64,000 nucleotides of DNA from Planctomycetota bacterium (GTDB lineage Bacteria > Planctomycetota > UBA8108 > UBA1146 > JAJFFE01), in assembly GCA_046154185.1 (NCBI GenBank), contig JBJXGE010000070.1, forward strand, positions 129,935 to 193,934, given 5' to 3'. Below, piece after piece: positions 23,288-59,473 of this stretch. Position numbers and translations under genes: made by a program. The notes under the pieces were generated by a model. The model was not told the origin of the DNA. It saw only the letters and a program-made list of their open reading frames with translations, and did no database searches. Position 1 is the first letter of the stretch. Each line of letters starts with the position of its first letter.

Positions 23288-24562
23288 ATGGCGATTCGTT
23301 CCCTGTTTGTTCCCATCGGCGCGACGGCGCTTGCTGTCGCGCTGGGTACTCTCACCTTGCCGGACCACGTTGAGCAAGAGATCCAGTGGCGCTCGGACCT
23401 CAAGGCTGCGGCGTTGATTGCTGCGCGCGAAGGACAACCGCTGCTGCTGGTCTTTCGCTGAGAAAAATGAAGGGATTGCGCTCCCTTTGACGAGCAGTTG
23501 GCTCGTCCATCCAGCGAGATCGTGGCATTGGCAAAGTCCTTTGTCTGCGTGCGCGTGACCGACATGCGCGAGGTCGATCTTGCGCGCTGGCGGTTCGATT
23601 TCGATCTTACCTTCGCGGCGTTGACGGCCGATGCCGATGGAACGGTGCTGCATCGCTACGGCGGGCGAGCGGCCCACGATCCACAGTCGGCGCTGTCCAT
23701 GCCGTCGTTCGCGGCCTTCTTGCGCGAGTCGCTTGCGGATTGGCGAACATACCGCAAGGATCCGCATCCGCCGAGCCTCGGACCCCCGCGTACTATCGAA
23801 GCCGTACCGGCATTCAAGAACCGCCAAAACAAGAAAGCGGGCGAGTGTGTGCATTGCCACACCATTCATGATTACGAATACAAGCAGGCCATCCTCGATC
23901 GATCGTGGCGCAGAGAACAAATGTGGAAGTTTCCCGACCCGGCGCGCCTCGGCATTGAAGTTGCCCGCGACCAACAGACTCGAATCATCTCGGTCGCTGC
24001 CGACTCCGCCGCGGCCGCAGCTGGAGTGCAAGTGGACGACTTGATTGTCAGCGCCGCGGGAAAGCGCATGGCGACTCGCGCCGATTTGCAGTGGATTCTC
24101 AACGGTCTTCCCTTCACGGCAACAGAGTTGGCGCTCGAACTCCGCCGCAATGAATTGCCCGTGGCGACGACCCTAAAACTGCCCGATGGTTGGAAGACAG
24201 CAAGCGCTTATGAATATGGTTGGCGACCCTTCAAATGGAATTTGCCGCCGCATCCGGGATTCGGCGGCAGCATTCAAGATGCCGACACAAAGCGGTCGCT
24301 CGGCTTGAAGGAAGACGAGTTCGCCCTGCGAATCGATTATCTCGTGACGTGGGGTGACGACGCTCGCACCGGCGAGAACGCCCAACGCGCCGGACTTAGA
24401 AAAGGCGATCTGTTGGTTTCTGTCGCCGGTAAGCGCGACTTCAAAAGCGAAAACGAGTTCCAAGCTTGGTACCGGATGACATCAAAGCCGGGGACGGTCT
24501 TAGATCTCATCGTGCTGCGCGATGGCAAGCGCAAAACGCTGCAAATGACCGTCATTGAATAG
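23288..24562 (+). CDS. Thioredoxin-fold + tandem PDZ secreted protein, candidate selenoprotein with two in-frame UGA (U-x-x-U) codons
   Basis: ORFs 23162..23461 and 23498..24562 are in the same frame and separated only by TGA at 23459-23461 and TGA at 23468-23470. The translation is ...AAREGQPLLLVFR*EK*RDCAPFDEQLARPSSEIVALAKSFVCVRVTDM..., which has a thioredoxin-like (DUF255/Thioredoxin_7-like) layout. The signal peptide MAIRSLFVPIGATALAVALG starts at 23288. Two PDZ domains lie in the C-terminal half. Confidence 0.55.
23489..23507 (+). promoter_or_regulatory. SECIS-like hairpin downstream of the tandem UGA codons
   Basis: GACGAGC-AGUUG-GCUCGUC forms a perfect 7-bp stem with a 5-nt loop containing GU. 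It lies 27 nt after the first UGA and 18 nt after the second. Confidence 0.4.
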
Positions 24563-52223: not shown

Positions 52224-52330
52224 TCGCGTGCGCGAAACACGCGGAGATAGATCTGTCCGGTCGGCAGTGATATTGTTTGCGACAGAAACGAATCTCGCGC
52301 TCGTTCAACATTTTGGGATGGGAGGCGCTG

Positions 52331-53086
52331 ATGTCGCATCGAGTTCTGTTCGTTCTGGGTTTGTTCGTGGCGATCTGCTTCGCGACCCCGAGTTCTGCTC
52401 AAACGACGCCTTATCAACTCAACCCGACCGGCACCGACTACACGTACGGCTGCTACCCGCCGTGCTTATGCCCCATCTTCGTCGGCGAATTCATGACAGG
52501 CGGCTTCGAGTTGACGTTCACGAGCTTCGACGGGCTCTACAACAACTACGACATCACCGGCATCGATTGGGCAACGACCGGGAGCCAGCTCGTCGGCTCC
52601 GGCACCTATAGAGTCTCGGTCGGCGCGCCGGAAGTGATGCACGAGATCACGCTCGATCTCGCCATTAATGGCGAGCCCCATCTGTTAGTCAGTGGACTCC
52701 TCCCGACTGACGACATCTTCCCGACGATTCAAATCGGCGCCGCCGAGAACGGCTACTTCTGCTTCGATTACACCGTGCTGATCGACGCCACACCGGTGTT
52801 CGCGCCAGCGCCGGATTTCGTCCGTGGCGACTGTAACGTCGACAACTCGACGAATATCGCCGACGCAATCTTCGCGCTCGACACGTTGTTCATTCCCGGC
52901 TCGACCGGCGGCCCTTGCGCGAAAGCCTGCGACGCGAACGACGACGGCAGCTTCAACCTCGCTGACGTGATCACGCTCCTGAGTCATTTGTTTTTGTCGG
53001 GGCCGATCCCGCCGCCGTTTCCCGGTTGCGGCGCGGATCCCACAATGGATAGCTTGAGCTGCGACGCGTTTGGGTTCTGTCCATAG
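52331..53086 (+). CDS. Small secreted protein with C-terminal Cys-rich dockerin-like module
   Basis: Signal peptide MSHRVLFVLGLFVAICFATPSSAQ. The C-terminal 90 aa (nt 52814..53083) are FVRGDCNVDNSTNIAD...CDANDDGSFNLAD...PFPGCGADPTMDSLSCD...CP. Confidence 0.65.
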   Translation: MSHRVLFVLGLFVAICFATPSSAQTTPYQLNPTGTDYTYGCYPPCLCPIFVGEFMTGGFELTFTSFDGLYNNYDITGIDWATTGSQLVGSGTYRVSVGAPEVMHEITLDLAINGEPHLLVSGLLPTDDIFPTIQIGAAENGYFCFDYTVLIDATPVFAPAPDFVRGDCNVDNSTNIADAIFALDTLFIPGSTGGPCAKACDANDDGSFNLADVITLLSHLFLSGPIPPPFPGCGADPTMDSLSCDAFGFCP

Positions 53087-53285
53087 CCGCCGACACTCGA
53101 CCTCGATGCGCGAGATCCGAAATTGTCGATTCAGAGTACATCGGCATCGACCTCGGTTCGGATCTCGCACTGTTTGTGCTCGACGCACTGAATCGCATTG
53201 ACCTCCCGTGGCGCTTGCATCGCCCTTTTCGAATTCGCGCCAGGAGAGTCTCGGCGCGTACTCCCACATTGAAATCGATACCGTC

Positions 53286-54959
53286 ATGACCCGAACTCCC
53301 GCGAGATTCCTCGTCGTTGCGCTCCTAACGACTGCCATTCGGCTCGCCGCCGTTGCACAGGATGTCGCCCCTGGCAACGCCGAGGAAATCGCACGGCTCG
53401 AGCGCGTCGAGGAACTCACCGAGGACCTTGCCAACGACTTGCTGGAACTTTCGGTGGCGGTGCGGGACGGTGATAAAAAACTTATCCGCGAGTTTTTCGC
53501 GGATAAGTTGAACTCCGCACCGCTCACGTGTGAGCCGGGTGCGCTCACCGCGAATCTCAAGTGGCTGGCGAACCGCGCGTGGGGTCCGCACTCGGCGGAC
53601 GGACCAACCGGGAAGCAGCAGGCCGTCACCGGCGACCTCTTTCTCGAGCGGTGGCTGCGCTTGCTAGCGCACTTCGATTCGATCGACGACGTGCGCTTCA
53701 AAGTGAAGGAAGGCGACTTCGACGACAACGGCGTCGCCAAAGTCCGTGTTTCGTTCTACGTCATCGGCCGCAATCGACAGTCTCAACGCGAATGGCTGCG
53801 CGGGAATGTCTGGATCACCGCAGCCAAATCCGCCGGGCACTGGCGGTGGAGCAGCTACCAACCCCTCTCGATCGATTCACTCGTGGCGCAAGAAGATTTG
53901 TTTTCGGAAGTGGCCGACAGCTCCGGCCTCGCCTTGGAACTGCCACCTTACACGGGCGGCTACGCCTGGTACGGCGCCGCAACGGCGGACTTCGACAACG
54001 ATGGTTTTCTCGATCTCTTCACGACGACTGGCGCGCACAATCGCCTCTACCTGAACCGAGCCGGCCGAGCGTTTGAGGATGTCTCCGCGGCCACTTCAGT
54101 GGCGTCGCTCGCGTCAGGACTCGCGCCGCTCATCCTCGACTACGATCATGACGGCGATCTGGATGTGTTCTTGAGCGGCATCGGACCGCAAACACTGCTG
54201 CAAAACCGCCTCGTCCCCGATGGCAAGCTCAGCTTCGACGATGTCTCACTCACCGCGGGCGTCGCTCGCGACGCGGTCGGATTCTCAGCCGTCGCCGGCG
54301 ATGTCGATGGCAATGGCTGGGAGGACATCTACGTCTGCTCCTACAATCATTACGGACGCGTAACGCCAAACTCGTGGTTCAAGGCGACGAACGGCACTCC
54401 AAACCTGTTGTTCGTCAACAACGGCGATGGCACGTTTCGTGAAGCGGCGGCAGCGTGGAAGGTCGACGATTGGCGCTGGAGTTATGCCGCGCAGTTCGTC
54501 GATCTCGACCGGGATGGCCGCATCGACTTGTACGTTGCGAACGACTTCGGCGAGAAGGCGCTGTTCATGAATAAGGGCGGATACTTCGAGGACGAGGCCG
54601 CGCGCCGCGGCGCCACCGATGCCGGCAATGGTATGGGCGTTTCGTTCGGCGACTTCGACAACGACGGGCATCTCGATGTCCATGCGACCAACATGTCGAG
54701 CACGGCCGGGAATCGCATTATCGGCCGAATCTTCGCGGGTGCGACGAGCACCAACAATGTGCTCAAGAAACTCGCGTCCGGCAACAACCTGCTGCGCAAC
54801 CGCGGTGACGGCACATTCGAAGATGTCACGACGGCCATCGGCGGCTTCTCAGGTGGATGGGCTTGGGGCGGCGGCTTTATCGACTTCGACAACGATGGGT
54901 GGAGTGACTTCTTTTGTCCAAATGGGTTTGTCTCCGGCCCATCGATGAAAGACACCTGA
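53286..54959 (+). CDS. CRTAC1-like FG-GAP/ASPIC-UnbV repeat protein, N-terminal part up to an in-frame TGA
   Basis: Signal peptide MTRTPARFLVVALLTTAIRLAAVAQ. Repeated DFDNDGxLDL and DYDHDGDLDV calcium-binding loops. The ORF ends at TGA 54957-54959, in frame with the next ORF. Confidence 0.65.
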   Translation: MTRTPARFLVVALLTTAIRLAAVAQDVAPGNAEEIARLERVEELTEDLANDLLELSVAVRDGDKKLIREFFADKLNSAPLTCEPGALTANLKWLANRAWGPHSADGPTGKQQAVTGDLFLERWLRLLAHFDSIDDVRFKVKEGDFDDNGVAKVRVSFYVIGRNRQSQREWLRGNVWITAAKSAGHWRWSSYQPLSIDSLVAQEDLFSEVADSSGLALELPPYTGGYAWYGAATADFDNDGFLDLFTTTGAHNRLYLNRAGRAFEDVSAATSVASLASGLAPLILDYDHDGDLDVFLSGIGPQTLLQNRLVPDGKLSFDDVSLTAGVARDAVGFSAVAGDVDGNGWEDIYVCSYNHYGRVTPNSWFKATNGTPNLLFVNNGDGTFREAAAAWKVDDWRWSYAAQFVDLDRDGRIDLYVANDFGEKALFMNKGGYFEDEAARRGATDAGNGMGVSFGDFDNDGHLDVHATNMSSTAGNRIIGRIFAGATSTNNVLKKLASGNNLLRNRGDGTFEDVTTAIGGFSGGWAWGGGFIDFDNDGWSDFFCPNGFVSGPSMKDT

Positions 54960-54970
54960 AGCCACTTTTG

Positions 54971-54987
54971 GCGTCAGGTCGTGACGC
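54971..54987 (+). promoter_or_regulatory. SECIS-like 17-nt hairpin 11 nt downstream of the in-frame UGA
   Basis: GCGUCA-GGUCG-UGACGC: a 6-bp perfect stem with a loop containing GGUC. The 11-nt spacer after the UGA at 54957-54959 is the canonical bacterial SECIS spacing. Confidence 0.4.
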
Positions 54988-56054
54988 AAACCAACAATCC
55001 AACCGCTGAGTCTGCACTGCGCAGCGACCAGTCACGCCTCATGGGCGCTGAGGGATTCTCATTCAGCGGCTATGAGCGCGATCCGCTGTTCTTGAATCTA
55101 GCTGGCAAGAAGGTGCTGGACATCTCCGGTGTCTCGGGCGTCGACTCCATTTCCGACGGACGCGCCGGCGTGTTTGCCGACTTCGACAATGATGGCGACA
55201 CCGACATTTTCATGAACAGCATTCAAGGCGCCGCGCACATGCTGTTTCGCAACAACGTGGGCGCGGCAAGTGGCTGGCTGCGCGTGACGCTGACGGGCGA
55301 CGCACGCACTGGCCCCGAAGCGTTCGGCACGCAAGTGCGAGTGAAAACCACGAGCGGCGTGCAGACGAAAGTCAAAAGCGGCGGCGAAGGTTATCTTTCG
55401 CAGCACGACCCGCGCCTGTTGTTCGGATTAGCGAAAGGTAGTTCCGCAGAGTGGATCGAAGTGTATTGGCCGGGTGGCCGCACGGATCGATTTGACGGCC
55501 CATTCGCCGATGGCAGCGAGCTGCGAATCCGTCCCGGCATAAAAGCTCCCGAGTTGGCCCCGCTGCCGCGCGGCGCATTGCCGGATTCGCTGACGCGGGC
55601 CAATACCGCGTTGCGACCGCTCGCGTTGCGCATCGGCATGAAACTGCCCGATCTCGAGATCACCGAAACCTCCGGCGCGCGCGTGCCGCTCGCCGCGCAA
55701 CGGAAGCCGGGCCGTCGCTTGCTCGTCAATTTGTGGGCCACCTGGTGCGGCAACTGCGCTCGTGAGATGCCGCAGCTCGATCGCCTCGCTCCCGCATTGG
55801 CGCGCGGCAACATCGATCTCTGCGGCATCAGCGTCGACACCGATGCAGGCGTCGACATCGCCGCATTCGCGAGCGCTCGAAAACTCAGCTATCCGCTGGT
55901 AAAAGGCGGCTCCTCCGCGGCCGAAAAGCTCTTCCCCGGCGGCAAGATCTCGGTACCGATCACGCTGCTTTTGAGCGACAACGGCACAATTTTAGATGCT
56001 TGGAGTGGGTGGAACGCGGAGGTCGAAGCCGCCATCCGTGCGCTCGCGCCCTGA
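54981..56054 (+). CDS. Continuation of the CRTAC1-like protein: ASPIC/UnbV domain plus C-terminal TlpA-like thioredoxin domain
   Basis: Same reading frame as 53286..54959. FADFDNDGDTDIF and ASPIC-type GTQVRVKT..GEGYLSQHDPRLLFG motifs. The thioredoxin CxxC is WATWCGNCAREMP. If translated independently it would lack a signal peptide. Confidence 0.6.
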   Translation: MTQTNNPTAESALRSDQSRLMGAEGFSFSGYERDPLFLNLAGKKVLDISGVSGVDSISDGRAGVFADFDNDGDTDIFMNSIQGAAHMLFRNNVGAASGWLRVTLTGDARTGPEAFGTQVRVKTTSGVQTKVKSGGEGYLSQHDPRLLFGLAKGSSAEWIEVYWPGGRTDRFDGPFADGSELRIRPGIKAPELAPLPRGALPDSLTRANTALRPLALRIGMKLPDLEITETSGARVPLAAQRKPGRRLLVNLWATWCGNCAREMPQLDRLAPALARGNIDLCGISVDTDAGVDIAAFASARKLSYPLVKGGSSAAEKLFPGGKISVPITLLLSDNGTILDAWSGWNAEVEAAIRALAP

Positions 56055-56101: not shown

Positions 56102-59100
56102 ATGCGGCATTCGCGCTTCGTCCTGGCGATCGCGTTGATGTTGGCGCCGAGAATCGCGGCCCAGAACAAAACCGAAGATGCGTGGCGGGAAATCAACGCC
56201 GGCGTCGCGCTCCTCGAACAGCAGAGCCCCGCGAAGGCGTCCGAGCGTTTTCGCGCCGCGCTGAAGCTCGACGAAAAACTGACGCCCGCGCGAATCAACT
56301 TGTCGATCGCGCTCTACCACGTTTCAAACTTCGCGGAAGCGCAGGCCGAAGCGCGCGCCGCAGCGATCGAAGCACCCGACTCGCCGCATGCGCACTACAT
56401 GGTCGGGCTCGCAGCACGACAATTAAGTGACACAAACGTGGCCCGCGCGGCCTTTGAGCGCGTGTTGGCGCTCGACGCCTTCGACTGCGCGACGCGAATC
56501 TATCTTGCCAGAGCCTGCCTCGAGACAGGCGAAATCGAGCGAGCACGCGGCTTGCTCGTCGAAGCCGTCGAGCGCGAACCATTCAATGTCACCGCGGTGT
56601 ACTCGCTCGCGACGACGCTCCAGCGGCTTGGTAAGCGAGAAGAGGCGAAGCCGTTCTTCGCGCGATTCCAAACGCTGCGCGCGAGCGGCTACGCGGTCAC
56701 ACTCGGGACCCAGTACCTTGAGACCGGTCGCTACGGCGCAGCCGTCACGGCGCGCGCCGACTCGCAACTTTTTGACTCGCGGACCGCGAAGTTTTCGCTT
56801 CGTCCGCCGGAGCAACGCGCCACGGCAGCGCTGCCCGCCCGTCGTGAATTCGGCGAAGGTGCGGTCGTTGATGCCGCCGGAAAAAACGAACTCGCCCAAC
56901 GCCAACCACCCGGGCTTTTGCTCGCCGACCTAGATGCCGATGGCAATCCGGAGGCGCTACTCTTCGGCGGCGGAGGCGTCATCGTGTGGCGGAACAACGA
57001 CGCGCAGTTTGCCGCGCAGGCGCCGCTCCTCGAAACGCCCGCGATCGGCGCTCTCGCCGGCGATCTAAACGGCGATGCACGCACCGATCTTCTCCTCTTG
57101 GCGGCAGATGGCCTGCACTTGTGGCTGCAAGATGCAAATACGGTGACGTTCCTTCCGAACGCGGCGAGTGCGCCGTTGCCGCAGCCGGCGGGGCTCCTGA
57201 CTACCGGCTGCCTCGCGGACGTCGACCACGATGGTGACCTCGACGTGTTCGCCGCGGGAACTACACCGACGCCGATGCTGCTGCGGAATAACGGCGATGG
57301 AAGTTTCACGGACATCGCCGCGGCCTCCGGCTTCACGATCGATTCCAAGGTGAGCGTCGCCGCGGCGGCGAGCGATCTCGACCTCGGCCGCGACACCGAC
57401 TTGCTGCTCCTGCGGCAAGACGCCAGCACACTCGTGTTTCGCAATCGTCGCGACGGGAGTTTCGTTGAAGCCGGAGCTCGCATGGGATTCGCCGCGACAC
57501 GCGCGGCCGCGACCAGCCTCGCCCTCGGCGATTACAACAAGGATGGTTTTGAAGACGTCTTTCTCGGCCGCCGCGAATTACCGGGACTCATCTTCACGAG
57601 CGACGGGCGCGCGGAAAGTTGGAAGTCAACGGACGCGCCTGCGGCGACCGGGGATGCTGACGCCGCGTTGTTCGCCGATCTCGACTGCGACGGCTGGCTC
57701 GATCTCATCACGCTTGCTGCCGGCCGACTCGCGCTCGACCGCGGCAGTAACCGCGCGTTTACGCCGTTTCCGCCTGGCACAGCACCCGATGCCTCGTTGC
57801 CCGCGCGCGCCCTCGGTGTCGCGGATGTGGATCGCGACGGCGATCTCGACATCGTGCTCGCGGATTCTGCCTCGCGCCCCATGGTGCTCACGAACGACCT
57901 GGCGGACGCGAAGTCCGTTATCGTCACACTCGCTGGCCGCGTTTCCAACAAGAGCGGCCTCGGCACAAAGCTCGATTTCCGCGCCGGCAGTTTGGCGCAG
58001 AAGATCGAATGCGGCATGAGCACGCCGGCGTCCACTCCGGCAACTCTGCACATTGGGCTCGGCGGTCACGCGCGGCCCGACGCGGTGCGACTCTTGTGGC
58101 CGTCCGGCAACGTGCAAGCCGAGCTTCCGCCGGAAGCGCTGAACCGCGGAATGCGCTGGGAAATCTTGGAAGTCGATCGGATGCCGTCGTCGTGCCCGAA
58201 TCTCTACACTTGGGATGGCCAGCGGTTCCGCTACGTGTCGGATTTTCTCGGCGGCGGCGAGATGGGCGCATGGGTCGCCGAAGGTATCCGCAATCAGCCC
58301 GATCCGGAGGAGTTCGTGCGCATACCGACCGGCGCGCTGGAACCGCGCGATGGACGCCTTGAGTTGCGCATCACCAACGAACTCGAGGAAGCCCTCTTCG
58401 TGGATCATCTCTCGTTGGTCGCGGTCGATCATCCGGCGAGCGTCGATGTGTACCCGAACGAGGGCCTGAGCTTCGTCGCGGCTCGGCCTTGGAAACTCCA
58501 CGTGATCGAAGCGCCGCAGCCGCCACTTCACGCTAGCGATGACGCTGGCCGCGATCACACGGCCGCGGTCGCAGCAACGGACCGCGTCACCGTCGAGGGC
58601 TTCCCTTTGCATCCCGTGCGCGGTTTCGCGGCGCCGCACTGGTTGGAGTGCGAGTTCGCGGCGTTGCCCGCGCACCCGGTGCTACTGCTCACGGGCTGGA
58701 CCGATTACGCCTTCAGCAGCGACACGCGCCGCGCTCAACAGGCGGGGCTCAATTTCGAAGTTCCCGTGCTTGAGGCACGCACGCGCGATGGCGCATGGCG
58801 CGTCGTCGAAGCAGACATCGGCATTCCTGTTGGCCATCCGCAAACGGTCTGCATAGAACTCGCTGGACGGCTGCAGCCTTTTGAAACGCGCCTGCGTCTC
58901 CGCACGAACATGCGCGTCTATTGGGACGCCGTCGCGATCGCAAACGCATGTCCGGCGGCGGTGCCGCGGATTTCTCGCCAATGGGCCGTGGCCGCCGACC
59001 TGCGTTGGCGCGGTTACAGCGCCCGAACGTTTCCCGGTGGGCGAAACCCGTGCGTGTACGAGTACGAACGGGTCACGACTGAGTCGCCGTGGAAATCGTT

Positions 59101-59473
59101 TGCCGGCGCATTCACTCGCACCGGTGACGTGCGCGAACTCGTCGAGCGCGTCGACAATGGGTTCGTGATCTGCACAACCGGCGATGAGATTGAGCTCAGC
59201 TTTTCGGCAGCGGCGTTTCCGTCGCTGCCGGCGGGCTGGACGCGCACCTGGCTCTTGCACGCGGATGGTTACTCGAAAGAGATGGATCCAAACTCCGCGA
59301 CGCCGGATCGACTGCTGCCGTTGCCCTTTCACGGCATGAGCCAGTATCCCTATGGACCCGAGGAAAAATTCCCCCTGACTCCACAGCTCGAATCTTGGCT
59401 CGAGTCGCTCAATACGCGATTCCTTCGCGGACACGTGCCGTTTCTGCCGGCCGCATCGGAAGCGACGCAATAG
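56102..59473 (+). CDS. TPR-repeat + FG-GAP/VCBS-like repeat + ASPIC/UnbV domain protein (CRTAC1-like)
   Basis: Signal peptide MRHSRFVLAIALMLAPRIAA. N-terminal TPR helices. Repeated LLLADLDADGNPE, DVDHDGDLDVF and DVDRDGDLDIV loops. The ASPIC segment is GLGTKLDFRAG...LHIGLGGHARPDAVRLLWPSG. Confidence 0.75.
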   Translation: MRHSRFVLAIALMLAPRIAAQNKTEDAWREINAGVALLEQQSPAKASERFRAALKLDEKLTPARINLSIALYHVSNFAEAQAEARAAAIEAPDSPHAHYMVGLAARQLSDTNVARAAFERVLALDAFDCATRIYLARACLETGEIERARGLLVEAVEREPFNVTAVYSLATTLQRLGKREEAKPFFARFQTLRASGYAVTLGTQYLETGRYGAAVTARADSQLFDSRTAKFSLRPPEQRATAALPARREFGEGAVVDAAGKNELAQRQPPGLLLADLDADGNPEALLFGGGGVIVWRNNDAQFAAQAPLLETPAIGALAGDLNGDARTDLLLLAADGLHLWLQDANTVTFLPNAASAPLPQPAGLLTTGCLADVDHDGDLDVFAAGTTPTPMLLRNNGDGSFTDIAAASGFTIDSKVSVAAAASDLDLGRDTDLLLLRQDASTLVFRNRRDGSFVEAGARMGFAATRAAATSLALGDYNKDGFEDVFLGRRELPGLIFTSDGRAESWKSTDAPAATGDADAALFADLDCDGWLDLITLAAGRLALDRGSNRAFTPFPPGTAPDASLPARALGVADVDRDGDLDIVLADSASRPMVLTNDLADAKSVIVTLAGRVSNKSGLGTKLDFRAGSLAQKIECGMSTPASTPATLHIGLGGHARPDAVRLLWPSGNVQAELPPEALNRGMRWEILEVDRMPSSCPNLYTWDGQRFRYVSDFLGGGEMGAWVAEGIRNQPDPEEFVRIPTGALEPRDGRLELRITNELEEALFVDHLSLVAVDHPASVDVYPNEGLSFVAARPWKLHVIEAPQPPLHASDDAGRDHTAAVAATDRVTVEGFPLHPVRGFAAPHWLECEFAALPAHPVLLLTGWTDYAFSSDTRRAQQAGLNFEVPVLEARTRDGAWRVVEADIGIPVGHPQTVCIELAGRLQPFETRLRLRTNMRVYWDAVAIANACPAAVPRISRQWAVAADLRWRGYSARTFPGGRNPCVYEYERVTTESPWKSFAGAFTRTGDVRELVERVDNGFVICTTGDEIELSFSAAAFPSLPAGWTRTWLLHADGYSKEMDPNSATPDRLLPLPFHGMSQYPYGPEEKFPLTPQLESWLESLNTRFLRGHVPFLPAASEATQ

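What the first reader, a model, noticed from the sequence alone, without database searches (positions are those of the whole stretch)
54940..54990. Single in-frame UGA in the CRTAC1-like gene, followed at canonical spacing by a 17-nt SECIS-like hairpin
ORFs 53208..54959 and 54981..56054 are in the same frame, and the only interruption is TGA at 54957-54959 (...FFCPNGFVSGPSMKDT-U-SHFWRQVVTQTNN...). The flanking protein sequence is continuous with FG-GAP/ASPIC-type repeat architecture, so this is one gene. An 11-nt spacer after the UGA (AGCCACUUUUG) is followed by GCGUCA-GGUCG-UGACGC, a 6-bp perfect stem with a GGUC-containing loop. As far as I recall, an 11-nt spacer plus a 17-nt stem-loop with GU in the apical loop is the minimal geometry of the E. 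coli fdhF SECIS. Taken with the U-x-x-U candidate 31 kb upstream, this suggests the organism uses selenocysteine, and that this extracellular CRTAC1-like protein with a C-terminal thioredoxin CxxC domain carries an additional Sec. The alternatives are a genuine nonsense mutation or a sequencing error.
Basis: partly seen in the sequence, partly recalled or inferred. Interest (0 to 1): 0.7.

Follow-up and report, generated by a model that had tools for sequence, protein, structure and literature searches.

The report
New selenocysteine protein, CRTAC1-like propeller
The "stop" codon inside this secreted CRTAC1-like gene is almost certainly a conserved selenocysteine codon with its own RNA insertion signal, which points to a selenoprotein family absent from the catalogue I checked; it is common in soil Acidobacteriota and some Planctomycetota and is split into two genes in public annotations.

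Summary
TGA 54957-54959 is the only break in a 922-codon gene (53286..56054). Eleven nt downstream lies the hairpin GCGUCA-GGUCG-UGACGC (54971-54987).

It is not an error or a pseudogene. All 80 related genomic loci fetched carry TGA, never another codon, at the same position (SMKDT-TGA-S[H/Q]FWRQVV), with the frame open on both sides. The hairpin is kept in all of them. One stem pair shows five standard pair types with no break, and a loop-closing pair switches G:C<->A:U. An uninterrupted homologue encoding the same peptide, with Ala there, lacks the hairpin.

The hairpin meets all four published bacterial SECIS criteria. TGA is otherwise the commonest stop in the window. A second gene (23288..24562) belongs to a curated selenoprotein family and has the same loop type.

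The Sec machinery could not be checked. Wider relatives mostly have Ser, Ala, Asp or Glu at this position, rarely Cys.

The protein has a signal peptide, a CRTAC1-like FG-GAP propeller, an ASPIC domain and a TlpA/ResA-like CxxC domain. I infer a secreted redox selenoenzyme recycled by its own CxxC domain. The family is absent from a 2026 catalogue of 119 selenoprotein families and from NCBIfam.

The parts
53286..56054 (+). Complete selenoprotein gene: 922 codons including one Sec codon, with its own stop TGA at 56052-54. Public gene calls split it into 53208..54959 and 54981..56054.
   Evidence: The frame is continuous apart from one TGA. Pfam finds FG-GAP_3, FG-GAP, UnbV_ASPIC, AhpC-TSA and Redoxin. 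Uninterrupted homologues of 790-944 aa exist. The AlphaFold model has pLDDT 93.7 and pTM 0.92.
53286..53357 (+). Predicted signal peptide MTRTPARFLVVALLTTAIRLAAVA, implying export across the cytoplasmic membrane.
   Evidence: Read from the sequence. Orthologues start with comparable hydrophobic leaders ending in A-x-A/AQ. No signal-peptide predictor was run, so this is an inference.
53958..55270 (+). FG-GAP beta-propeller (CRTAC1-like); limits are approximate. The Sec codon lies inside this region, after the last DxDxDG calcium-loop motif DFDNDGWSD.
   Evidence: Pfam FG-GAP_3 scores 131 bits in 4 stretches. Foldseek matches murine CRTAC1 9etn_A with E = 8.9e-31 and TMt 0.74.
54957..54959 (+). 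In-frame UGA read as selenocysteine (residue 558 of the 922-aa precursor). In the model it sits just before helix 560-567 (SHFWRQVV).
   Evidence: TGA occupies this codon in the window and in 80 of 80 related loci, never TAA, TAG or a sense codon. A further 35 and 31 protein clusters end exactly at ...DT. The seven codons between the TGA and the GTG change almost only synonymously, including AGY<->TCG for Ser.
54971..54987 (+). bSECIS-type hairpin: 6-bp stem GCGUCA/UGACGC and loop GGUCG with invariant G-U. It starts 11 nt after the UGA, and 17 nt lie between the UGA and the loop.
   Evidence: -7.9 kcal/mol. Across 81 sequences 99.5% of cells are paired, and one pair shows UA/GU/UG/AU/CG with no break. 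The loop-closing pair switches G:C<->A:U, 43 against 22, with no intermediates. A tree requires at least 6 and at least 3 independent changes at these two pairs. The hairpin is absent from a non-Sec homologue encoding the same peptide. All four published bSECIS criteria are met.
55320..55508 (+). UnbV_ASPIC domain.
   Evidence: Pfam PF07593 scores 53.7 bits against a cut-off of 23.4. It aligns to CRTAC1 9etn_A residues 373-482.
55632..55991 (+). C-terminal thioredoxin-fold domain of the redoxin / TlpA-ResA-DsbE type.
   Evidence: Pfam AhpC-TSA scores 50.6 and Redoxin 40.9 bits, both above cut-off. Foldseek matches ResA, TlpA, DsbE, StoA and Etrx2 at E of about 1e-9 to 1e-11. NCBIfam TlpA and ResA equivalogs score far below their cut-offs.
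55746..55757 (+). CxxC motif (W-C-G-N-C) of the redoxin domain. These are the only two cysteines invariant in 70 full-length Sec-containing orthologues.
56102..59473 (+). Downstream gene, 47 nt after the selenoprotein gene: a 1123-aa TPR + FG-GAP + UnbV_ASPIC protein and probable operon partner.
   Evidence: Pfam. It lies on the same strand downstream in about 30 of the 80 related loci, directly adjacent in the Planctomycetota loci.
23288..24562 (+). Second selenoprotein gene in the window: a Trx7/PDZ (seleno)protein with two in-frame TGAs (23459-61 and 23468-70, U-E-K-U). Its hairpin GACGAGC-AGUUG-GCUCGUC lies at 23489-23507.
   Evidence: NCBIfam NF041199 scores 346.9 bits against a cut-off of 300, full length. 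Homologues P0270-P0272 have C-V/I-P-C at the two TGA positions. The hairpin loop is 25 and 34 nt from the two UGAs.

Best explanation
53286..56054 is a single gene for a secreted selenoprotein. When the ribosome reaches UGA 54957-59, the 17-nt hairpin 11 nt downstream acts as a bacterial SECIS. Its exposed G-U in the apical loop would be bound by SelB-GTP-Sec-tRNASec, which delivers selenocysteine instead of a release factor. Translation then continues to the ordinary stop at 56052-54.

The 922-residue product has these parts:
- a signal peptide;
- an N-terminal helix/beta-sheet domain of unknown function;
- a CRTAC1-like FG-GAP beta-propeller carrying the Sec at the N-terminal end of a conserved helix (DT-U-SHFWRQVV);
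- an ASPIC domain;
- a C-terminal TlpA/ResA-like thioredoxin-fold domain with CxxC.

**Shown by comparison:** one gene; a conserved, context-specific recoded UGA; a conserved SECIS-type RNA structure that goes with the TGA rather than with the peptide.

**Inferred:**
- The Sec is a redox-active catalytic residue working outside the cytoplasm on an unknown substrate.
- Its oxidised form (selenenic acid or selenenylsulfide) is recycled by the fused CxxC domain.
- The CxxC domain would in turn be reduced by a CcdA/DsbD-type membrane electron carrier.

The fusion logic resembles Neisseria PilB, in which a Trx-like domain is joined to MsrA/B (recalled from memory, not tested here).
For: **Conservation of the UGA**
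- TGA and the flanking frame are conserved in 80 of 80 loci from Acidobacteriota and Planctomycetota, at only 47-65% protein identity.
- The codons between the TGA and the next GTG evolve as coding sequence.
- Uninterrupted homologues carry the same peptide.

**The hairpin**
- 99.5% of cells are paired. One pair shows five standard pair types, and a second pair switches G:C<->A:U. No unpaired state is seen, and several independent events are required.
- Synonymous sites in the stem are frozen: GTG in 81 of 81, xCG in 80 of 81.
- The alternative fold is not supported.
- A non-Sec homologue with the identical peptide has no hairpin.
- All four bSECIS criteria are met.

**Genomic context**
- TGA is the normal, commonest stop in the window.
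- A curated selenoprotein family member with the same loop type lies 31 kb upstream.

**Protein**
- The only invariant Cys residues in 70 orthologues are the CxxC pair, and the region around U is the best conserved part of the protein.
Against: - No selA, selB, selD or tRNA-Sec is present in the 64-kb window. No tRNA-Sec was found in the flanks of the 80 loci; sel genes were not looked for there. The rest of the genome could not be searched.
- Nearly all known selenoproteins have many Cys homologues. Here the uninterrupted relatives carry Ser, Ala, Asp, Glu, Arg, Asn, Leu or Gln at this position, and only 2 clusters have Cys. The residue is therefore not catalytic in the wider family.
- Redoxin domains also occur in some non-Sec relatives, so the Sec-CxxC link is not exclusive.
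- No chemistry or substrate is known for any bacterial CRTAC1-like protein.
Confidence: 0.88

Rival explanations
1. SECIS-directed or hairpin-stimulated read-through inserts something other than Sec. One route would be Cys inserted by a tRNA-Sec-like 'ReC' tRNA with a SelB-like factor. Another would be near-cognate Trp, Cys or Arg insertion. The protein would then be full length but not a selenoprotein.
For: The Sec machinery was not seen. Relatives tolerate many residues at the position, so no specific chemistry is demonstrably required. selC*/tRNA-ReC systems are cited in the recent literature.
Against: The hairpin fits the SelB-type bSECIS model in size, spacing and G-U loop. A curated selenoprotein family member with Sec/Cys-aligned TGAs lies in the same window. 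If Cys or Trp were the product, TGC/TGT or TGG would be expected to replace TGA in at least some of 80 diverged genomes, and none does.
Confidence: 0.06
2. These are two separate genes. Translation stops at the UGA and re-initiates at GUG 54981, with the hairpin tuning the coupling. The products would be a secreted propeller fragment and a separate ASPIC-redoxin protein. This is how public annotations read the locus.
For: Gene callers start the downstream ORF at the conserved GTG in hundreds of genomes. The GTG lies in the 3' arm of the hairpin.
Against: - The seven codons between TGA and GTG are under protein-level purifying selection and match uninterrupted homologues.
- There is no ribosome-binding site.
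- The downstream part has no signal peptide, yet its domains are of extracytoplasmic types.
- The stop is always TGA, never TAA or TAG. Termination-reinitiation would not require that.
- The AlphaFold model folds the two halves as one confident chain.
Confidence: 0.04
3. The TGA is a nonsense mutation (pseudogene) or an assembly or sequencing error in this MAG.
For: Only the single-sequence view supports this: a stop in the middle of a domain.
Against: The identical TGA is present in 80 independent assemblies from two phyla. A further 35 and 31 protein clusters end at ...DT. Both halves are under strong purifying selection.
Confidence: 0.01
4. UGA is reassigned genome-wide as a sense codon, as in genetic codes 4 or 25.
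For: None beyond the in-frame TGAs themselves.
Against: TGA ends 11 of 23 well-supported genes in the window, including this gene itself.
Confidence: 0.01

Closest known systems
Escherichia coli fdhF SECIS (minimal 17-nt upper stem-loop 11 nt after the UGA; G23/U24 exposed in a GGUC loop), recalled from memory, plus the general bSECIS model quoted in PMC13188914
   Same: It lies in the coding sequence immediately after the UGA, with an 11-nt spacer and a 17-nt stem-loop. The apical sequence CA-GGUC is identical to the fdhF apex, with G-U in the loop. The G:C<->A:U covariation of the first and fourth loop bases fits an fdhF-like closing pair that leaves G-U exposed. All four criteria of the consensus model are met.
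   Different: There is no bulged U in the stem. One extra G lies on the 3' side of the loop (GGUCG). In the window sequence there is no extended lower stem, although some orthologues have one. Binding to SelB is untested.
Known Sec-containing thioredoxin-fold families: redoxin family protein (PF08534, UxxC), UGC-containing TlpA family (cd02966), Prx-like thiol:disulfide oxidoreductases (PMC13188914 Table 1)
   Same: A TlpA/redoxin-type domain, probably exported, in a protein that contains Sec.
   Different: In those families the Sec sits in the CxxC motif of the thioredoxin fold. Here the redoxin motif is an ordinary WCxxC, and the Sec lies 263 residues upstream in a beta-propeller domain. NCBIfam selenoprotein models do not match.
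CRTAC1 / ASPIC / UnbV family (murine CRTAC1 structure 9etn)
   Same: An FG-GAP propeller followed by an UnbV_ASPIC domain. The fold match has E = 8.9e-31 and TMt 0.74. Both are secreted.
   Different: CRTAC1 and most bacterial relatives have no Sec or Cys at this position and no redoxin domain. No enzymatic activity is known for the family.
Trx7/PDZ domain-containing (seleno)protein, NCBIfam NF041199 (the neighbour at 23288..24562)
   Same: It is in the same genome, is exported, and has the same SECIS loop type (AGUUG versus GGUCG) at a permitted distance from the UGA.
   Different: It is an unrelated protein. It is a classical case with Sec in a CxxC motif and Cys homologues.
Extracytoplasmic fusions of a catalytic redox domain to a TlpA-like recycling domain, such as Neisseria PilB (Trx-like + MsrA + MsrB), recalled from memory
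   Same: A catalytic chalcogen residue in one domain and a fused TlpA-like CxxC domain that could recycle it outside the cytoplasm.
   Different: The catalytic domain here is a beta-propeller of unknown activity. The relay is inferred, not shown.

Membership tests
Bacterial SECIS element (consensus model quoted in PMC13188914) | Apical loop of 3-9 nt on an upper stem of 4-16 bp | tested here: met
   5-nt loop and 6-bp perfect stem, kept in 81 of 81 sequences.
Bacterial SECIS element (consensus model quoted in PMC13188914) | A G in the first two loop positions, usually followed by G or U | tested here: met
   The loop is GGUCG, or AGUUG in some orthologues. The G and U at loop positions 2-3 are invariant in 81 sequences.
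Bacterial SECIS element (consensus model quoted in PMC13188914) | 16-37 nt between the UGA and the apical loop | tested here: met
   17 nt (54960-54976), identical in all 81 sequences with no indels.
Bacterial SECIS element (consensus model quoted in PMC13188914) | Minimum free energy of -7.5 kcal/mol or lower | tested here: met
   -7.9 kcal/mol for the 17-mer and -9.3 for the 39-nt context; -8.5 to -14.9 in orthologues.
Bacterial SECIS element (consensus model quoted in PMC13188914) | Binds SelB and directs Sec insertion | not testable with these tools
   Needs a binding or reporter assay.
Bacterial selenoprotein gene | In-frame UGA conserved among orthologues, with coding conservation on both sides | tested here: met
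   80 of 80 loci plus the window. The flanks are the best conserved part of the protein.
Bacterial selenoprotein gene | RNA structure downstream of the UGA is conserved, shows compensatory change, and is specific to the UGA-containing forms | tested here: met
   The hairpin is absent from an Ala-containing homologue with the same peptide.
Bacterial selenoprotein gene | Homologues with Cys aligned to the Sec | tested here: inconclusive
   Only 2 of roughly 45 uninterrupted representative clusters have Cys: P0148 (which has a WCQPC motif, though Pfam found no redoxin domain in it) and P0268. The rest have S, A, D, E, R, N, L, Q or I. The closest relatives (44-52% identity) have Ser, Ala or Gln.
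Bacterial selenoprotein gene | selA, selB, selC (tRNA-Sec) and selD in the same genome | not testable with these tools
   None in the window, and no tRNA-Sec in the flanks of the 80 loci. Indirect support: a curated selenoprotein (NF041199) in the same window, and Acidobacteriota reported as Sec users.
Bacterial selenoprotein gene | Selenium shown in the protein | not testable with these tools
   Needs 75Se labelling or mass spectrometry.
CRTAC1 / ASPIC-UnbV family | FG-GAP repeat propeller plus UnbV_ASPIC domain | tested here: met
   PF13517 131 bits, PF01839 57.9 bits and PF07593 53.7 bits, all above cut-off.
CRTAC1 / ASPIC-UnbV family | Fold like a solved CRTAC1 structure | tested here: met
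   9etn_A, E = 8.9e-31, TMt 0.74, 608 aligned columns, using a model with pLDDT 93.7.
TlpA / ResA / DsbE thiol-disulfide oxidoreductases (C-terminal domain) | Thioredoxin fold with a CxxC motif | tested here: met
   PF00578 50.6 bits and PF08534 40.9 bits. WCGNC is present, and both Cys are invariant in 70 orthologues. Fold matches to ResA, TlpA and DsbE.
TlpA / ResA / DsbE thiol-disulfide oxidoreductases (C-terminal domain) | Reaches the curated equivalog score for TlpA or ResA | tested here: not met
   53.8 bits against a cut-off of 230 (TlpA) and 46.3 against 170 (ResA). It is a related domain, not TlpA or ResA itself.
Known Sec-containing redoxin/TlpA selenoprotein families (UxxC, UGC) | Sec located in the CxxC motif of the thioredoxin fold | tested here: not met
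   The motif is Cys-x-x-Cys. The Sec is residue 558 in the propeller, against Cys 821 and 824. NF041054 (WAxxUGC) scores 31.6 bits against a cut-off of 300.

The most novel reading that the evidence does not exclude
This is an uncatalogued, widespread family of exported selenoenzymes in soil and freshwater Acidobacteriota (above all Pyrinomonadaceae) and Planctomycetota.

- The selenocysteine arose in a CRTAC1-like beta-propeller at a position that relatives fill with non-redox residues rather than Cys. That would be a gain of a new catalytic centre, serviced by a fused TlpA-like CxxC domain.
- Standard Sec/Cys-homology screens may have missed it for that reason. That is my inference; I found no source that says so.
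- If true, it would give the first biochemical handle on the bacterial CRTAC1/ASPIC family.
- It would also mean that Sec use in mostly aerobic soil bacteria is broader than current catalogues suggest.
Probability: 0.6. Interest if true: 0.72.

Novelty: new member of a known kind. Interest (0 to 1): 0.65.

Why it matters
**Annotation.** In every public protein set searched, this gene appears as two fragments. The names include 'VCBS repeat-containing protein, partial', 'redoxin family protein', 'ASPIC/UnbV domain-containing protein' and 'enediyne biosynthesis protein'. No full-length U-containing entry was found among 1.8 billion representatives. One rule, TGA after ...DT followed by S-x-FWRQVV and the hairpin, would repair a large number of gene models.

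**Selenium biology.**
- The family is missing from a 2026 catalogue of 119 prokaryotic selenoprotein families and from NCBIfam.
- It sits in a beta-propeller, whereas most catalogued selenoproteins have a thioredoxin-like fold.
- It largely lacks Cys counterparts, which exposes a blind spot of screens that rely on Sec/Cys pairs.

**Function.**
- CRTAC1/ASPIC proteins are abundant in Planctomycetota and Acidobacteriota.
- The human relative CRTAC1 is raised in osteoarthritic cartilage and synovial fluid (abstract seen).
- I found no enzymatic activity reported for the family, which is an impression rather than the result of a systematic search.
- A conserved Sec next to a fused disulfide reductase domain points to redox chemistry at a defined site that can be tested directly.

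Tried and rejected
- **Rfam and ARAGORN on the window:** no matches at Rfam gathering thresholds and no tRNA.
- **ARAGORN on the 80 loci:** only one tRNA-His and one tRNA-Cys, no tRNA-Sec.
- **Alternative fold:** the minimum-free-energy fold of the 71-nt context pairs the UGA itself. I rejected it because it has no compensatory change and its variable positions break it in 9-21 of 65 distinct sequences.
- **GC bias as the cause of the G:C<->A:U switch in the loop:** the same sequences keep CAG, ACC and TTC at neighbouring synonymous sites. The switch occurred at least 3 times on a tree built without the hairpin region.
- **Structure prediction with Cys in place of U:** X was used instead. Model coordinates are not exposed, so no Sec-to-CxxC distance could be measured.
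- **Sequence search against the PDB:** aligned only the ASPIC part to CRTAC1, not the Sec region.
- **Last homologue search with a short spanning query:** returned only short fragments. It gave 31 more clusters ending in ...DT and no new Cys forms.
- **Strict Sec-redoxin co-occurrence:** true inside the Sec clade, but redoxin domains also occur in non-Sec relatives.
- **Literature:** searches combining selenoprotein/selenocysteine with FG-GAP, ASPIC, UnbV, CRTAC1, VCBS or integrin, plus look-ups in six selenoproteome papers, found no mention of this family. BSepDB supplementary files were not held.
- **Strict operon with the downstream TPR/FG-GAP/ASPIC gene:** only about 30 of 80 loci show it.

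Full report
**1. The observation**

- ORF 53208..54959 and ORF 54981..56054 share a frame. The only interruption is TGA at 54957-54959 (...NGFVSGPSMKDT*SHFWRQVVTQTNN...).
- After an 11-nt spacer comes GCGUCA-GGUCG-UGACGC at 54971-54987.

On its own the hairpin is not compelling.
- The 17-mer folds at -7.9 kcal/mol (z = -2.8).
- In 39-nt and 71-nt contexts it is not better than shuffled sequence.
- The minimum-free-energy fold of the 71-nt context is a different hairpin that includes the UGA.

Pfam shows that the joined protein is one architecture: FG-GAP repeats, UnbV_ASPIC, then an AhpC-TSA/Redoxin domain with WCGNC. The likely start is ATG 53286, which gives a signal-peptide-like leader MTRTPARFLVVALLTTAIRLAAVA.

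**2. The TGA is conserved, not accidental**

A protein search with a 305-residue span across the site returned more than 100 proteins of 360-390 aa. They come from Pyrinomonadaceae, other Acidobacteriota and Planctomycetota, and they all begin at V/M-TQ..., the GTG just after the TGA.

I fetched 80 genomic loci encoding relatives of the downstream half. Every one has TGA at the same codon, in SM[K/S/A]DT-TGA-S[H/Q]FWRQVV. None has TAA, TAG or a sense codon, and the frame is open for about 550-620 codons upstream and 365-390 downstream. Protein identity to the window is only 47-65%.

An exhaustive search of 1.8 billion cluster representatives added 35 distinct 50%-identity clusters that end exactly at ...DT. 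A later search added 31 more. No full-length U-containing entry exists in these collections.

The seven codons between the TGA and the GTG change almost only synonymously, including Ser AGC/AGT<->TCG. They also match the peptide of uninterrupted homologues, for example P0122...RRDT-A-SHFWRQVVTH.... That stretch is therefore translated in this frame.

TGA is otherwise the commonest stop in the window (11 of 23 gene ends), and it ends this gene too. The genetic code is not reassigned.

**3. The hairpin behaves as a selected RNA structure tied to the TGA**

An ungapped alignment of 81 sequences (A2) gave the following.
- The pair formed by the third base of the Arg codon and the first base of the Thr/Ser/Ala codon shows U:A (53), G:U (8), U:G (2), A:U (1) and C:G (1), with no unpaired case.
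- The first and fourth loop bases switch together, G:C (43) against A:U (22), with no intermediates. This leaves an invariant G-U exposed.
- On a neighbour-joining tree built without the hairpin region, these two pairs need at least 6 and at least 3 changes.
- Synonymous sites inside the stem are frozen: Val GTG in 81 of 81, and xCG in 80 of 81.
- The alternative fold that contains the UGA has no compensatory change and is broken at its variable positions.

A negative control supports this. The gene for P0122 encodes the identical peptide with Ala (GCC) instead of Sec. It uses cgg-cag-gtg-gtg-acc, and the homologous 17-mer does not fold (-2.4 against -7.9 kcal/mol). The Ser-containing P0002 gene likewise has no hairpin.

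The element meets all four criteria of the published bacterial SECIS model as quoted in PMC13188914: loop of 3-9 nt, stem of 4-16 bp, G in the first two loop positions, 16-37 nt from the UGA, and energy of -7.5 kcal/mol or lower. Here the values are a 5-nt loop, a 6-bp stem, loop GGUCG, 17 nt and -7.9 kcal/mol. From memory, the 11-nt spacer, the 17-nt size and the CA-GGUC apex are those of the minimal E. coli fdhF SECIS. I could not retrieve that paper.

**4. Does the organism decode Sec?**

No tRNA-Sec, selA, selB or selD lies in the window. No tRNA-Sec lies in the flanks of the 80 loci. The rest of the genome was out of reach.

Indirect support is good.
- The U-x-x-U candidate 31 kb upstream is gene 23288..24562. 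With its two TGAs masked, it matches NCBIfam NF041199, 'Trx7/PDZ domain-containing (seleno)protein', over its full length at 346.9 bits (cut-off 300).
- Its few homologues have C-V/I-P-C exactly where the window has U-E-K-U.
- It is followed by a 7-bp hairpin with loop AGUUG, whose loop lies 25 and 34 nt from the two UGAs. This is the same loop type as the A:U variant of the main element.
- A scan of both strands of the window for a TGA, 16-37 nt, a stem of at least 5 bp and an RGUYG loop finds three sites. Two of them are these two genes.
- Acidobacteriota are documented Sec users.

**5. What the protein is**

The AlphaFold model of the 922-residue chain is confident (pLDDT 93.7, pTM 0.92).
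- Foldseek matches murine CRTAC1 (9etn_A, E = 8.9e-31, TMt 0.74) for the propeller-ASPIC body.
- It matches ResA, TlpA, DsbE, StoA and Etrx2 for the C-terminal domain.
- The Sec sits immediately before helix 560-567 (SHFWRQVV), at its N-terminal end.

In 70 full-length reconstructed orthologues, the only invariant cysteines are the two of the redoxin WCxxC. The segment around U is the best conserved in the protein.

NCBIfam has no model for this family. The C-terminal domain scores far below the TlpA and ResA cut-offs.

A TPR + FG-GAP + ASPIC gene follows 47 nt downstream. It recurs downstream in about 30 of the 80 loci.

**6. An unusual feature**

In uninterrupted relatives (30-52% identity) the residue aligned with Sec is:

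| Residue | Clusters |
|---|---|
| Ser | 9 |
| Ala | 6 |
| Asp | 6 |
| Glu | 5 |
| Arg | 4 |
| Asn | 4 |
| Leu | 3 |
| Gln | 2 |
| Cys | 2 |
| Ile | 1 |

These counts are and were made with a pattern match. I dropped its FG-GAP-repeat false hits by eye, so treat the numbers as approximate. The closest relatives have Ser, Ala or Gln.

This departs from the usual rule that selenoproteins have many Cys homologues (stated in PMC12013277). It may explain why homology-based screens have not listed the family; that is my inference. It also means the residue is not catalytic in the wider CRTAC1-like family.

Redoxin domains occur in some non-Sec relatives too. The Sec-CxxC coupling is therefore universal within the Sec clade but not exclusive to it.

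**7. Mechanism**

Shown by comparison: this is one gene, with a context-specific recoded UGA and a SECIS-type hairpin.

Inferred:
- SelB-dependent Sec insertion.
- Export through the signal peptide.
- A redox-active Sec on the propeller that is recycled by the fused TlpA-like CxxC domain. That domain would be reduced in turn by a CcdA/DsbD-type carrier, analogous to fused Trx-Msr proteins such as Neisseria PilB (from memory).

The substrate is unknown.

Rivals:

| Rival explanation | Probability |
|---|---|
| Non-Sec read-through, including Cys insertion by tRNA-ReC | about 0.06 |
| Termination-reinitiation giving two proteins | about 0.04 |
| Pseudogene or sequencing error | about 0.01 |
| Reassigned genetic code | about 0.01 |

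**8. Novelty**

A 2026 review that compiles 119 prokaryotic selenoprotein families lists none with FG-GAP, ASPIC, UnbV or CRTAC1 domains. The same holds for the deep-Sep, BSepDB, GOS, ISME 2016 and 2022 review texts. Full-text searches pairing selenoprotein terms with these domain names found nothing relevant.

I therefore rate it a new member of a known kind: a new bacterial selenoprotein family that uses the ordinary SECIS mechanism. It has two atypical traits, a non-thioredoxin propeller host domain and near absence of Cys counterparts.

Noticed in passing
window 23288..24562 (+); TGAs at 23459-61 and 23468-70; hairpin 23489-23507: A Trx7/PDZ (seleno)protein (NCBIfam NF041199, 346.9 bits against a cut-off of 300) in which both positions of the CxxC motif are TGA (U-E-K-U). 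The 2026 catalogue lists this family as CxxU with one Sec, so this would be a double-Sec variant. One hairpin (loop AGUUG) lies within SECIS range of both UGAs.
   Followed up: partly
window 56102..59473 (+): An 1123-aa TPR + FG-GAP + UnbV_ASPIC protein 47 nt downstream of the selenoprotein gene. Its C-terminal region of about 450 aa has no Pfam match. It recurs downstream in about 30 of the 80 related loci, which suggests a functional partner.
   Followed up: partly
L001-L080 and proteins P0001-P0120, P0273-P0300: Public annotations split this gene everywhere. The N-terminal halves are named 'VCBS repeat-containing protein, partial' or 'hypothetical protein'. The C-terminal halves are named 'redoxin family protein', 'thiol-disulfide isomerase/thioredoxin', 'peroxiredoxin', 'ASPIC/UnbV domain-containing protein' or 'enediyne biosynthesis protein'.
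   Followed up: yes
L003 (CAZPQE010000095.1): This contig is labelled 'uncultured Clostridia bacterium'. It carries the Acidobacteriota-type selenoprotein gene and the TPR/FG-GAP partner, so it is probably mis-binned or mis-classified.
   Followed up: no
L052 (CAVXOI010000003.1), upstream half of the gene: The open frame upstream of the Sec codon is only 268 codons, against about 550-620 elsewhere. This suggests an additional interruption (frameshift, second stop or assembly error) in this one genome.
   Followed up: no
P0139 (833 aa) and P0163 (568 aa): These relatives keep the N-terminal domain, the ASPIC domain and a WCxxC redoxin domain. They lack the propeller blades around the Sec site, so they look like natural deletion variants that bypass the Sec region.
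   Followed up: no
window 53373..53900 (residues about 30-205 of the precursor): The N-terminal domain has one long helix followed by a curved beta-sheet in the model and no Pfam match. It is conserved in the Sec clade and in uninterrupted relatives (motifs RLE..E.LSESLAND and RFK.K). Its function is unknown.
   Followed up: no
window 52277..53086 (+): A 269-aa protein with no Pfam match. By eye its C-terminus looks dockerin/EF-hand-like (DANDDGSFNLADVITLLSHLF). It is not conserved next to the selenoprotein gene in other loci.
   Followed up: no
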